The notes under the pieces were generated by a model. The model had not been told where the DNA came from. It was given only the letters and a program-made list of their open reading frames with translations, and ran no database searches. From Candidatus Jordarchaeia archaeon (GTDB taxonomy: Archaea > Asgardarchaeota > Jordiarchaeia > Jordiarchaeales > Jordiarchaeaceae), in the NCBI GenBank assembly GCA_029856435.1, contig JAHQXB010000117.1:1-39084 (forward strand): 39,084 nucleotides of DNA. The letters are read 5' to 3'. This document shows positions 1-37,446 of this stretch, piece by piece (the stretch's first letter is position 1; every line of letters begins with the position of its first letter). The position numbers and the translations under genes were made by a program.

Positions 1-403
1 GAGCTTTTAAGCCCCCGTCTGACCTCTAAGACCTGCTCTGTGTGCGGGTGGTTGAATAAAGACCTGAGGGGAGCGGTCTTCAAGTGTCGGCGGTGCGGCG
101 TTGTAATTGACCGTCAGCTCAACGCAGCCATAAACCTTCACCTAAGGATGGAGAGTCTTTCTCCCCACCCGACCACGTTCTTCCGCTCGATCGTGAGGCC
201 CCTCCTGCACTCCTCACGGCGTTGGCGGCAACACCCGCAGGAGAAGTGGTCAGTGAAGAGGCGGAGACGTGGATTCGTGGAGGTGGGGAGCGGGTTCACC
301 CTGAGCGGGGTGGAGTGGAAGGCGGCTGATGGACTCGCGAGGCCGCCGCATGATACTGTGAAGCCTCAACTCCTATGTAATTCTATGAATTTCTACATAG
401 AGT
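1..403 (+). mobile_element. Right part of an IS607-type (tnpA serine recombinase + tnpB) element
   Basis: Bases 148-403 align (about 80-85% by hand) with 19333-19081(-), and similarity stops after ...TAGAGT, defining the right end. The 19 kb copy joins this right end to an IS607-tnpA-type left end. Confidence 0.8.
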
Positions 404-34880: not shown

Positions 34881-35435
34881 ATGTTAACTCGGGATGAAGC
34901 CTTAAAAATGGTGAAGGAGCACCTTAAAGATGATAAATTGGTGAAACATGTTCTAGCTGTGGAGGCTATAATGCGGAACCTGGCCAAACACCTAGGAGAA
35001 GACGAAGAACTTTGGGGAATAGTGGGTTTAATACATGATCTAGATTATCAGGAAACTATGAATTCCCCAGAAGTACATGCCACTAAAACTGTGGAGTATC
35101 TTCAGGGTCTGGTGCCCCAAGAAGTTATTAATGCGGTGAAGGCTCACAACTATGAGTACACCCGTGTTCGACCTCAGACCAGGCTGGAGAAGGGGCTCAT
35201 TTGTTCGGACGCCGTCTCAGGTTTGGTTATAGCAGCCGCTCTCGTAATGCCCACCAAGAAGTTGGAACAGGTTAGAGTTGAAACACTCAAAAAGAAGTTT
35301 AAAGACAAAACATTTGCCTCAGCCACAGGCCGGGACAGGATTAGGGTTTGTGAAGAAATCGGAGTGCCAATTGCAGAATTCTTCAGGATAAGTCTGGAGG
35401 CCCTCCAGAAAATTTCCAGTAGTCTAGGTCTGTGA
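34881..35435 (+). CDS. HDIG-domain metal-dependent phosphohydrolase
   Basis: KHVLAVEAIM, GLIHDLDY, H, AHN, CSDAVSGL. The stop codon TGA is supplied by the inserted element end. Confidence 0.9.
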   Translation: MLTRDEALKMVKEHLKDDKLVKHVLAVEAIMRNLAKHLGEDEELWGIVGLIHDLDYQETMNSPEVHATKTVEYLQGLVPQEVINAVKAHNYEYTRVRPQTRLEKGLICSDAVSGLVIAAALVMPTKKLEQVRVETLKKKFKDKTFASATGRDRIRVCEEIGVPIAEFFRISLEALQKISSSLGL

Positions 35436-35690
35436 ACTACCACCCTTTGAGAAGGGTGGCTTCTGAGGCCGTGCCTTGAACAACACTACTAAGTTCGCTG
35501 GACGGCAATGCCTCAGTTATGGGCTGGTTCACGACAGCTCCTATGCCAGACATCGAGCCTGGCACTCGTCCGTTGCCGAACGTACCGAAGTCCTTTTGGG
35601 TATCCCAAGCTTCATGCTCACAGCGTGGCTTGGGTTTCTCCAGTTGTTCCTCTAAGGGGAACATTTCTATATTCTATTCACTTCGCCAGC
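35432..35690 (-). mobile_element. 259-bp non-autonomous IS200/IS605-type mini-element with omegaRNA-like body
   Basis: The minus strand ends GAAG-CCACCCTT-CTCA-AAGGGTGG-TAGTTCAC (canonical right-end hairpin + TCAC). It starts right after TTTAA, with a left hairpin at 35645-35663. Removing it regenerates CTT TAA at the end of the HD gene. Confidence 0.8.
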
Positions 35691-35811
35691 TTAAAAACTT
35701 CATCAATTCATCCAACGTTTAAAAACGGTGGTCTTCTTGAGGTGGTCTCTATAAAAAAAGGGAGGAAAGGATAAAACTTTTTCTGGTGGGGACCTGTTTT
35801 ACTTTTTGGGT

Positions 35812-37446
35812 TTAGAACCAGTCTTTGGGCTGATACTCGCCAAATACGCTGACGAGGGTTTCTCTTATTTCTCCCAGAGTGGCGTAGGCATGGGCACATT
35901 TTATGAGATAGGGCATTAGGTTGTTTTCGGTTCTGGCCTGTTTTTCAAGCTCCTTTAAGGCGTCTCTTACTTTGTCATTGTTTCTGGTTTCCCTAAGTTT
36001 TTTGAGCCTCTCACATTGTACTCGTTCAACCTCAGGGTCAACTACCAACACTGGAATGCACACCTCATCGTCCTGGTCTGTCCTGTAGCAGTTCACTCCC
36101 ACGATTTTTCTCTTGCCTTGTTCTACCTCCTTCTGGTATTTGTAGGAGGCTTTAGCTATTTCGTTCTGGAAGAACCCCTTCTTTATGCATTCTATTACTC
36201 CACCCTTCTTTTCAATTATATCAAAGTACTTGTAGGTTTCCTCTTCCATCTTGTTTGTCAACCACTCCACATAGTAGGAGCCTCCCAGGGGGTCTATGGA
36301 GTCTGTGACGCCGGTTTCGTAGGCTATTATCTGTTGGGTTCTCAAAGCCAACTTTACTGCCTCTTCTGTTGGAAGGGCATAAGCTTCATCGTAAGAGTTT
36401 GTGTGCAACGATTGTGTGCCTCCCAAAACAGCAGCGAGGGCCTGGATGGCTACTCTAACCACGTTGTTTAATGGTTGCTGGGCGGTTAGGGAAACACCCG
36501 CTGTTTGGGTGTGGAAGCGCAGCATCATGGAGCGGGGATTGGTTGCGCCCCTATTTTTCATTTCCTTGGCCCAAATTCTCCTTGCCGCCCGATACTTTGC
36601 GATTTCTTCAAAGAAGTAGTTGTGGGCATTAAAGAAGAAGGACAATCTGGGGGCGAAGGCATCTATATTCATCCCCCTCTCTAGGGCAGCATCCACATAG
36701 GTGAGACCATCCGCCAAGGTGAAGGCCAGTTCTTGGACTGCGGTGGCTCCCGCCTCCCTTATGTGGTAGCCGCTTATACTGATGGTGTTCCAGCGGGGCA
36801 ATTCCTCTGTTCCAAACTCAAAGGTGTCTAGAATCAGTCTCATTGAGGGTTCCGGCGGAAAGATGTATGAGTTCTGGGCAATGTATTCCTTCAGTATGTC
36901 GTTTTGAATGGTTCCGCCTAATTCTTTTCTTTGGGCACCCTGATTCTCAGCAGCCGCAATGTAGAAGGCCCAGATAATTGCTGCGGGACCATTTATAGTC
37001 ATTGAGGTGGTAACCTTGTTGAGCGGAATTCCGTCAAAAAGTACCTCCATATCCGCCAAGGAGGATATGGCAACTCCACACTTTCCAACCTCGCCGTGGG
37101 CAAGGGGATGATCAGAGTCGTAACCATAGAGGGTGGGAAAATCAAATGCCACGCTTAGACCTGTTTCCCCATGTTCTAGAAGGTATTTGAATCTTTTATT
37201 GGTGTCAAAGGCTGTGCCGTAGCCGGAGAACATTCGCATGGTCCAAAGGCGGCCTCTATACATTGTGTGATATACTCCACGTACAAAGGGAAACTCTCCG
37301 GGGAGCCCCAAATCCTTATGATAATTTATTTGAATATCGTCAGGTGTATAAAACGGTTTAACTTCAATATCGGATAGGGTGGTGAACTTTTCTGCTCTCT
37401 CCACGTACTCAGACTCTCCCTTTTTGAAGGTTTCAATCTTTGTCAT
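35812..37446 (-). CDS. B12-dependent acyl-CoA mutase large subunit, isobutyryl-CoA-mutase-like signature
   Basis: [59 protein letters not shown]. Start ATG 37446 behind GGGGTGA (the ORF track starts at 37548). Confidence 0.93.

What the first reader, a model, noticed from the sequence alone, without database searches (positions are those of the whole stretch)
35432..35690. 259-bp IS200/IS605-type RNA-cassette element inserted into a stop codon that rebuilds the host protein exactly
Seen: on the minus strand the element starts right after TTTTTAA (35697-35691) and ends with hairpin CCACCCTT/AAGGGTGG + TAGTTCAC. Deleting 35432-35690 gives ...GGT CTT TAA; the occupied allele reads ...GGT CTG TGA, so both encode ...SSLGL*. 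The body is densely base-paired: TGTTCC/GGAACA, CCCAAGC/GCTTGGG, TGCCAG/CTGGCA, GTTCG-GCAA/TTGCC-CGAAC, CTGAGGC/GCCTCAG. Established: IS200/IS605 elements insert 3' of a short motif without duplication and end in TCAC/TCAA; TTTAA is a reported archaeal (Sulfolobus) TnpB TAM; the omegaRNA spans the right end and the flank becomes the guide. Inference: this is a protein-free omegaRNA cassette whose guide (AGACCTAGACTACTGG...) would direct a trans-acting TnpB to the empty allele and is antisense to the HD mRNA 3' end. The TTTTTAA target may double as its TATA box.
Basis: partly seen in the sequence, partly recalled or inferred. Interest (0 to 1): 0.8.

Follow-up and report, generated by a model that had tools for sequence, protein, structure and literature searches.

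The report
Gene-less mini-transposon at a stop codon
A 319-base, gene-less offshoot of an IS200/IS605 transposon carries the folded scaffold of a TnpB guide RNA and sits in the stop codon of an HD-domain gene, where it supplies a new stop codon in the same place; it is a clear example of a known kind of element (a PATE), not a new system.

Summary
It runs 35750 to 35432 on the minus strand (319 nt, not 259). It was inserted 3' of TTTAT (35755-35751), not after TTTTTAA.

- **Empty sites.** Two same-genus genomes read ...GGT CTA TAA at this spot. The occupied allele reads ...GGT CTG TGA.
- **Copies.** About 10 copies lie in this genome, in two body types (319 and about 425 nt), nearly all after TTTAT. 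None was found in 150 other genomes of the phylum.
- **Ends.** They follow the IS608 rules. One contig end carries the same left end beside a Y1 TnpA tail.
- **Guide-RNA scaffold.** The last 136 nt match a covariance model built only from the 3' ends of tnpB genes in other genomes (E 3e-6). They contain a covarying pseudoknot between the last six bases and a loop about 100 nt upstream, as in the ISDra2 omega RNA.
- **Nuclease.** No matching TnpB gene was found.
- **The stop-codon swap.** It occurs at only one copy. It follows from the transposon end TCAC resembling the target TTAT.

This is a known kind of element (a PATE carrying an omega RNA). This scan had already noted other copies of the same family elsewhere in this genome.

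The parts
35751..35755 (-). Target / transposon-adjacent motif TTTAT, 5' of the left end. Its complement ATAAA held the last base of codon CTA and the original TAA stop of the HD gene.
   Evidence: Empty sites in G004 (L058) and G001 (L064) read GGTCT|ATAAAAA. The flank is TTTAT or TTAT in 9 copies with a left end.
35432..35750 (-). The whole 319-nt gene-less IS200/IS605 derivative (PATE, 'type A').
   Evidence: Boundaries come from the empty sites and from where the copies stop aligning. There is no target duplication.
35700..35750 (-). Left end. It has 19 nt from the cleavage site to the hairpin foot, the guide tetranucleotide AAGA (35735-35732) and the imperfect hairpin CCACCG..CGTTGG (35731-35712). 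An outer stem CCTCAA/TTGATG (35742-35737 with 35706-35701) encloses the hairpin.
   Evidence: The same 47 nt precede a Y1 TnpA tail on contig C15. The outer stem covaries in other genomes: ACGCAA/TTGCGT, GGAGCAA/TTGCTCC. The 19-nt spacing matches IS608 (PMC3201880).
35691..35697 (-). Internal TATA-like box TTTTTAA (in the context GTTTTTAAGCTG), probably the old tnpB promoter.
   Evidence: The same GTTTTTAAGCTG box lies 35 nt upstream of the ATG of the intact TnpB on contig C43. It is present in 7 of 10 copies and deleted in C160, C68 and C83. Promoter activity is inferred, not tested.
35536..35693 (-). 158-nt 5' domain shared by both body types (91% column identity). It holds four local hairpins (35663-35645, 35634-35604, 35582-35567, 35565-35543).
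   Evidence: Alignment A2. Covariance model R1 finds 10 copies in the own genome and none in 10 genomes of the order or 150 of the phylum. All pairs are kept, but few are compensatory.
35521..35540 (-). Pseudoknot hairpin GGAGCTG[TCGTGAAC]CAGCCC. The loop hexamer GTGAAC (35532-35527) pairs with the terminal GTTCAC (35437-35432).
   Evidence: Loop and terminus covary in 11 distinct combinations (64 of 66 positions paired; 0 of 20000 shuffles reach this). In tnpB-linked loci the pseudoknot is 100% paired, with 3 of 6 pairs compensatory.
35463..35516 (-). Stem-loop closed by CTGAGGC/GCCTCAG, between the pseudoknot hairpin and the right-end hairpin.
   Evidence: Copy C68 has the compensatory form CTGGGG/CCCCAG.
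35432..35463 (-). Right end: guide tetranucleotide GAAG (35463-35460), hairpin CCACCC..GGGTGG (35459-35440) and tail TAGTTCAC ending in the cleavage motif TCAC (35435-35432).
   Evidence: The same GGAAGCCACCC-loop-GGGTGGTAGTTCAC end follows about 400-aa TnpB ORFs in G047 (6 copies), and also occurs in G038 and G009.
35432..35567 (-). Omega-RNA-type scaffold module.
   Evidence: End-to-end match (model positions 1-130) to model R2, which was built only from tnpB-linked 3' ends of 7 other genomes: 33.4 bits, E 2.9e-6 in 70 kb and 1.5e-4 across the genome.
35416..35431 (-). Flank that would be the 16-nt guide (AGACCTAGACTACTGG) if the RNA reads through. It is antisense to the last codons of the HD gene.
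   Evidence: Geometry only. Each copy has a different flank. No transcript data.
34881..35435 (+). HD-domain gene (184 aa). Its last base of codon CTG and its TGA stop (35432-35435) are supplied by the element.
   Evidence: PF01966, E 7.6e-9. ORF. Orthologues of 90-95% identity in four same-genus genomes lack the element.

Best explanation
This is a PATE, a protein-free derivative of an IS200/IS605 ('peel-and-paste') insertion sequence.

Shown: it has IS608-style ends and lies 3' of TTTAT with no duplication. It exists in about 10 copies of two body types. Its last 136 nt are homologous to the guide-RNA scaffold region that overlaps the 3' end of tnpB in related archaeal ISs, including the pseudoknot next to the guide. 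This copy landed on the minus strand in a TTTAT whose complement ATAAA carried the TAA stop of the convergent HD gene. The transposon end TCAC has the same pyrimidine/purine pattern as the target TTAT. Its complement GTGA therefore puts TGA where TAA was and G where A was in the wobble position (CTA to CTG), so the protein is unchanged.

Inferred: a Y1 TnpA made elsewhere moved it as single-stranded DNA. The candidate is the cut-off IS on contig C15, which has the same left end. The element is transcribed from the retained tnpB promoter box, from the TTTAT/A(A/G)AG junction, or from both. The transcript folds into an omega RNA whose 3' flank (AGACCTAGACTACTGG) would direct a TnpB to TTTAT plus that sequence, i.e. 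to the empty allele. Because no matching TnpB was found, the RNA is most likely an orphan at present.
For: - **Empty sites:** at this locus in G004 and G001, and at a second copy (C88) in G003, G001 and G004.
- **Copies and flanks:**
- **IS608 geometry:** 19 nt from the cleavage site to the left hairpin foot. The guide tetranucleotides AAGA and GAAG pair with TTAT and TCAC (rule taken from PMC3201880).
- **TnpA partner:** the same 47-nt left end is followed by a Y1 TnpA C-terminus (WSPGYYIGTAGHVSAETIRKHIEGN) on C15.
- **Right end:** shared with TnpB-carrying copies in G047, G038 and G009.
- **Scaffold homology:** model R2, built from tnpB-linked modules only, matches the window copy end to end.
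- **Pseudoknot:** covariation. Its position (-6..-1 paired with -101..-96) matches ISDra2 (-5..-3 paired with -103..-105; PMC10097598).
- **No conserved ORF:** the 75-aa ORF is frame-shifted in 8 of 10 copies and has no Pfam match.
- **Precedent:** PATEs that encode omega RNAs used in trans are described in PMC10055086.
Against: - No TnpB gene with this right end or scaffold is in the assembly. Of 18 scaffold-like modules, only one (C43, with different hairpins and the end GGCTGAC) follows an intact TnpB.
- The TnpA partner is only a 26-aa tail at a contig end.
- Three copies lack the internal TATA-like box.
- There are no transcript data.
- The copies are 80-93% identical, so the internal stems of the 5' domain show little independent covariation.
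- I read the pseudoknot hexamers off homologous loop positions by eye. Part of that count is therefore not blind, although the alignment-based count on tnpB-linked loci is.
Confidence: 0.85

Rival explanations
1. It is a dead relic. The element is a PATE by descent, but its RNA no longer does anything. The structure survives only because the copies are young and because TnpA needs the end hairpins.
For: No cognate TnpB was found. Three copies lost the TATA-like box. One copy lacks its left end (C48), one has TCAT instead of TCAC (C160), and two carry a nested MITE. The family is confined to one genome.
Against: Pseudoknot partners changed together at positions outside the TnpA cleavage tetranucleotide (GTTCAC/GTGAAC against GGTCAC/GTGACC), and also in single copy C113 (GGTTAC/GTAACC). 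This points to selection on the RNA fold rather than on TnpA recognition. Stem CTGAGG/CCTCAG is compensated in C68.
Confidence: 0.4
2. One reading: a 259-bp cassette (35432-35690) inserted after TTTTTAA, with a TTTAA TAM, whose removal gives CTT TAA.
For: The arithmetic works on the sequence.
Against: Nine copies continue to align for 60 nt beyond 35690. Real empty sites read CTA TAA, with the junction at 35750/35751. Three copies have no TTTTTAA at all.
Confidence: 0.02
3. The 158-nt 5' domain is a separate functional RNA (cargo) carried by the mini-transposon, not part of the guide scaffold.
For: It is the best-conserved part (91% column identity) and is shared by two body types that differ downstream. 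It lies outside the roughly 116-nt core scaffold defined for ISDra2. It has no match in Rfam or in tnpB-linked loci (one search covers only the last 136 nt).
Against: It occupies the position of the decayed tnpB 3' coding region. A weak same-frame similarity to a TnpB tail exists (25% over 60 aa, E 0.08 in a tiny search space). Natural omega RNAs extend well upstream of the structurally ordered core. It was not found anywhere else.
Confidence: 0.1
4. It is an antisense or 3'-end regulator of the HD gene that was selected for at this site.
For: The predicted read-through is antisense to the last HD codons, and the element now forms the HD 3' UTR.
Against: Only this one of the 12 copies and fragments checked abuts a gene end. 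Same-genus orthologues lack it. There is nothing locus-specific in its sequence.
Confidence: 0.03

Closest known systems
PATEs (palindrome-associated transposable elements), the gene-less IS200/IS605 derivatives, including those noted to encode omega RNAs in Geobacillus stearothermophilus (PMC10055086; term from the Haloquadratum work, PMC3119063)
   Same: No ORF. Both subterminal hairpins are kept. It is multi-copy, presumably mobilised in trans by TnpA, and keeps the guide-RNA region at the right end.
   Different: It is archaeal and larger than a bare pair of ends (319 and about 425 nt). It carries an extra 158-nt structured 5' domain seen only in this genome. No partner TnpB was identified.
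ISDra2 TnpB omega RNA (cryo-EM structure, PMC10097598)
   Same: The scaffold ends exactly at the transposon right end, and the flank would be the guide. A pseudoknot joins the nucleotides just before the guide to a loop about 100 nt upstream.
   Different: There is no detectable sequence similarity. Here 6 Watson-Crick pairs are predicted against 3 plus 2 non-canonical pairs. The target motif is TTTAT rather than TTGAT. No protein sits beside it.
IS608 of Helicobacter pylori (TnpA mechanism; PMC3201880)
   Same: Insertion is 3' of a tetranucleotide without duplication. The left cleavage site lies 19 nt 5' of the hairpin foot. The 4-nt guides 5' of each hairpin pair with the cleavage sites.
   Different: The motifs are TTAT/TCAC rather than TTAC/TCAA. 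The right cleavage site lies 8 nt (type A) or 10 nt (type B) from the hairpin foot. An extra outer stem encloses the left hairpin.

Membership tests
IS200/IS605 non-autonomous element (PATE) | Subterminal imperfect hairpins at both ends on the same strand, with no terminal inverted repeats | tested here: met
   Left hairpin 35731-35712 and right hairpin 35459-35440, both on the minus strand.
IS200/IS605 non-autonomous element (PATE) | Insertion 3' of a short specific motif without target-site duplication | tested here: met
   The empty site GGTCT|ATAAA compared with the occupied allele, a second locus, and TTTAT/TTAT flanks in 9 copies.
IS200/IS605 non-autonomous element (PATE) | Cleavage sites recognised by 4-nt guides 5' of the hairpins, with the left site 19 nt from the hairpin foot (IS608 rule) | tested here: met
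   AAGA pairs with TTAT and GAAG with TCAC, and the spacing is 19 nt (rule from PMC3201880). This is sequence compatibility only; there was no biochemistry.
IS200/IS605 non-autonomous element (PATE) | No protein-coding gene | tested here: met
   The 75-aa ORF is broken in 8 of 10 copies and has no Pfam match.
IS200/IS605 non-autonomous element (PATE) | A Y1 TnpA-encoding partner with matching ends in the same genome | tested here: inconclusive
   C15:19903-20026 has the same 47-nt left end plus 26 aa of a TnpA tail, and then the contig ends. The two complete tnpA genes (C166, C58) are different.
TnpB omega RNA (reRNA) | Homology to the region overlapping the 3' end of tnpB and the right end in TnpB-carrying elements | tested here: met
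   Model R2, built without any mini-element, matches 35432-35567 end to end (33.4 bits, E 2.9e-6). All five type-A copies match. Type B matches only at the right-end hairpin.
TnpB omega RNA (reRNA) | Pseudoknot between the nucleotides adjacent to the guide and an upstream loop | tested here: met
   Geometry as in ISDra2.
TnpB omega RNA (reRNA) | A cognate TnpB protein that uses it | tested here: not met
   No TnpB with this right end is in the assembly. Only C43 has an intact TnpB, and its ends differ. The assembly has 181 contigs, many of which break inside ISs, so absence is not proven.
TnpB omega RNA (reRNA) | Expressed RNA whose 3' end extends about 16-20 nt into the flank | not testable with these tools
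   No transcript data were available.

The most novel reading that the evidence does not exclude
This genome holds at least 16 orphan guide-scaffold modules, each with its own flank-derived guide, but apparently only one intact TnpB. The mini-elements may form a dispersed, trans-acting guide set for a single nuclease. In that reading, the genome-specific 158-nt 5' domain would be an added RNA module (for stability, processing or nuclease choice) rather than decayed coding sequence.
Probability: 0.12. Interest if true: 0.55.

Novelty: new member of a known kind. Interest (0 to 1): 0.3.

Why it matters
This is a clean, fully bounded example of a guide-RNA-only mini-transposon in an archaeon. Both the occupied and the empty alleles are in hand, and the pseudoknot is supported by covariation. 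It could serve as a test case for whether TnpB nucleases use guide RNAs supplied in trans. It also shows how the resemblance between the target (TTAT) and the transposon end (TCAC) makes insertion into a TAA stop codon silent. That explains how such elements can sit at gene ends without cost. None of this is new in kind.

Tried and rejected
- **Rfam** (all 4227 families, E up to 10) over 35300-35850: only chance-level hits.
- **Metagenome scan** with a 30-mer from the left end: no match.
- **Species-genome scan** with a 17-mer from the body: 116+ hits in unrelated bacteria, all chance. The pattern was too short and that scan was wasted.
- **Model R1** of the 158-nt 5' domain: nothing outside the own genome in 10 genomes of the order and 150 of the phylum.
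- **tblastn of five TnpB proteins against the mini-elements:** only the hairpin-encoded KPPxSxGGS tail and sub-significant same-frame matches.
- **Pairing of AAGTGAATAG with the terminal TTCAC,** as in the MFE fold: rejected, because the type-B copies do not keep it.
- **A stop-codon-preserving 'strategy':** rejected as a general trait. Only 1 of the 12 copies and fragments checked sits at a gene end. Related elements with the ends TTGAC or CTGAC would not make a stop codon.
- **A hairpin-plus-pseudoknot scanning script** over the 16 TnpB hits in the own genome found nothing. Its 6-bp exact-stem threshold was too strict, since it also missed a case I had seen by eye.
I therefore could not look for empty or occupied alleles in other assemblies of the same population, nor confirm the organism's name.

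Full report
**1. What is in the sequence.**

On the minus strand the window reads ...CCCTTTTTTTAT | AGAGACCACC ... GGGTGGTAGTTCAC | AGACCTAGACTACTGG.... The HD-domain gene (34881-35435, + strand; PF01966) ends ...GGT CTG TGA. The last G of CTG and the TGA lie inside the reverse complement of the terminal GTTCAC. The stretch folds far better than shuffled controls (z -5.1). Rfam has nothing for it.

**2. It is a repeat, and it is longer than reported.**

BLAST against the window's own 181-contig genome gives 12 matches:
- four full-length 'type A' copies (C79, C160, C48, C68);
- six 'type B' copies, which share the first ~210 nt of the element and the right-end hairpin but have a longer middle (about 415-425 nt; 532 nt in C168 with a nested insert);
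- two fragments.

The consensus there is TTTAT | AAAGACCACCTCAAGAAGA-CCACCGTTTTCAAACAGTGG-ATGAATTGAGG.

**3. Empty sites.**

The HD orthologues of four same-genus genomes (90-95% identical proteins) lack the element. In G004 and G001 the gene ends ...TTA GGT CTA TAA AAA..., and the sequence then continues into what lies beyond 35750 in the window. With the right end fixed at TCAC, as in every copy, the element is 35750-35432 (319 nt). The target is TTTAT (35755-35751), and nothing is duplicated.

A second locus gives the same picture. At the type-B copy on C88, three congeners read TTTTAAT | TGGAAGAG where this genome reads TTTTAT | element | TGGTAGAG. Nine copies with a left end follow TTTAT or TTAT. 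The apparent exception, C68, is explained by an unrelated 106-nt MITE nested in its left end.

**4. The stop-codon swap.**

The empty allele reads CTA TAA and the occupied allele reads CTG TGA. Both encode ...SSLGL*.

The cause is simple. The target TTAT and the transposon end TCAC share the same pyrimidine/purine pattern. Their complements ATAA and GTGA therefore place TAA and TGA in the same register, with a synonymous A-to-G change in the preceding wobble position.

Among the 12 copies and fragments checked, only this one abuts a gene end. Related elements ending in TTGAC or CTGAC would not create a stop codon. I read this as a fortunate consequence of target/end mimicry, not as a selected strategy.

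**5. Family of the ends.**

- The left cleavage site lies 19 nt 5' of the hairpin foot, exactly as in IS608.
- The four bases 5' of each hairpin (AAGA on the left, GAAG on the right) can pair with TTAT and TCAC by the IS608 scheme (rule in PMC3201880).
- Contig C15 ends with the same 47-nt left end after TTTAT, followed on the other strand by the C-terminus of a Y1 transposase. This is the likely autonomous partner, cut off by the assembly.
- The same right end (GGAAGCCACCC-loop-GGGTGGTAGTTCAC) follows about 400-aa TnpB ORFs in six copies in G047, and also occurs in G038 and G009. Similar left ends with a covarying outer stem occur in G018, G031 and G041.

**6. Is the body a guide-RNA scaffold?**

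I collected the last 130 nt of ten TnpB-carrying elements from seven other genomes of the phylum. In these:
- a hairpin within the last ~35 codons of tnpB is 94% paired, with compensatory changes at 4 of 5 pairs;
- the 3' six bases of its loop are 100% complementary to the last six bases of the element, with compensatory changes at 3 of 6 pairs.

The mini-elements add further covarying versions: GTGAAC/GTTCAC in type A, GTGACC/GGTCAC in type B, and GTAACC/GGTTAC in copy C113. Over 11 distinct combinations, 64 of 66 positions pair, and no shuffle out of 20000 reaches that.

The geometry (-6..-1 paired with about -101..-96) matches the pseudoknot of the ISDra2 omega RNA (-5..-3 paired with -103..-105; PMC10097598).

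A covariance model built only from the tnpB-linked sequences matches all five type-A copies end to end. The window copy (35432-35567) scores 33.4 bits, with E 2.9e-6 in the 70 kb searched and 1.5e-4 across the genome.

The 3' 136 nt are therefore a homologue of the TnpB guide scaffold. Type B matches that model only at the right-end hairpin. It keeps the pseudoknot, but an extra hairpin is inserted in the loop.

**7. The rest of the body.**

Positions 35693-35536 form a 158-nt domain shared by both types at 91% column identity. Its four hairpins are kept in every copy, but because the copies are close relatives there is little independent covariation. A model of this domain finds nothing outside this genome.

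The domain sits where the decayed 3' coding part of tnpB would be. The 75-aa ORF in the window copy is frame-shifted in 8 of 10 copies and has no Pfam match.

The box GTTTTTAAGCTG that precedes it is also found 35 nt upstream of the start codon of the intact TnpB on C43. It is probably the old tnpB promoter. Three copies have lost it.

**8. Partner nuclease.**

The genome has 17 hits to the TnpB TNB domain, most of them fragments or at contig ends. Of 18 scaffold-like modules, only C43 follows an intact TnpB (420-aa protein; 418 aa by the script), and C63 follows a decayed one. About ten modules belong to a third mini-element family. No TnpB has this element's right end. Whether the RNA is used today is therefore open.

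**9. Comparison with what is known, and verdict.**

Gene-less IS200/IS605 derivatives (PATEs) that keep an omega RNA and would depend on a TnpB supplied in trans are already described (PMC10055086). This is a well-bounded archaeal member of that kind.

Earlier notes of this scan had already flagged and followed up other copies of the same family on other pieces of this genome. One of them supplied the pseudoknot lead, which I then tested. Those notes call the organism an Asgard archaeon; I did not test that.

Interest is modest.

Noticed in passing
window 10-138 (+), and on to about 400: The window (contig C79) starts inside the C-terminal TNB domain of another TnpB gene that is cut by the contig edge. 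Its 3' region differs from the element studied here.
   Followed up: partly
own genome C15:19903-20026 (contig end): TTTAT is followed by the same 47-nt left end. On the opposite strand lie the last 26 aa of a Y1 TnpA (WSPGYYIGTAGHVSAETIRKHIEGN). This is probably the autonomous parent IS, broken by the assembly.
   Followed up: partly
own genome C68:~1014-1120 and C168:~2220-2330: A 106-nt MITE with terminal inverted repeats (GGTGATGCAGA...TCTACATCACC) is nested in the left end of the C68 copy, with a duplication of about 9 bp (AAGACCAC). It is also nested inside the C168 type-B copy. BLAST of the two flanks of the C68 copy, one of which holds this MITE, gives 165 hits in the genome.
   Followed up: partly
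own genome: C21:51593, C57:13828, C127:4840, C69:2, C36:17032, C140:6724, C78:247, C158:8779, C136:41, C101:9535: A third family of about ten guide-scaffold modules has the right end TGGAAGCCCCGTCCGTTAGGGCGGGGTAGTTCAC. None follows an ORF longer than 96 aa.
   Followed up: partly
own genome C23:~14070-12765 (-) and C141:11425-11546 (+): C23 holds a decayed TnpB IS of the same broad family (TTTAT target, right end ...GGGGAGGCTCAC, loop GTGAGC). C141 holds a mini-element with the same right end.
   Followed up: partly
own genome C43:36921-38183 (L015 646-1908): This is the only evidently intact TnpB (420 aa; PF07282, E 1.9e-16) with its own ends (right end AAGCCCACGGATTTATCCGTGGTGGCTGAC). It is 35% identical to the G031 TnpB, whose ends resemble those of the studied element.
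   Followed up: partly
window 35753-35812 (-): The methylmalonyl-CoA mutase gene (minus strand, ends at 35812) is followed by a run of seven T that ends in the TTTAT target. The element therefore sits right after a probable oligo-T terminator and could also be reached by read-through from that gene.
   Followed up: no
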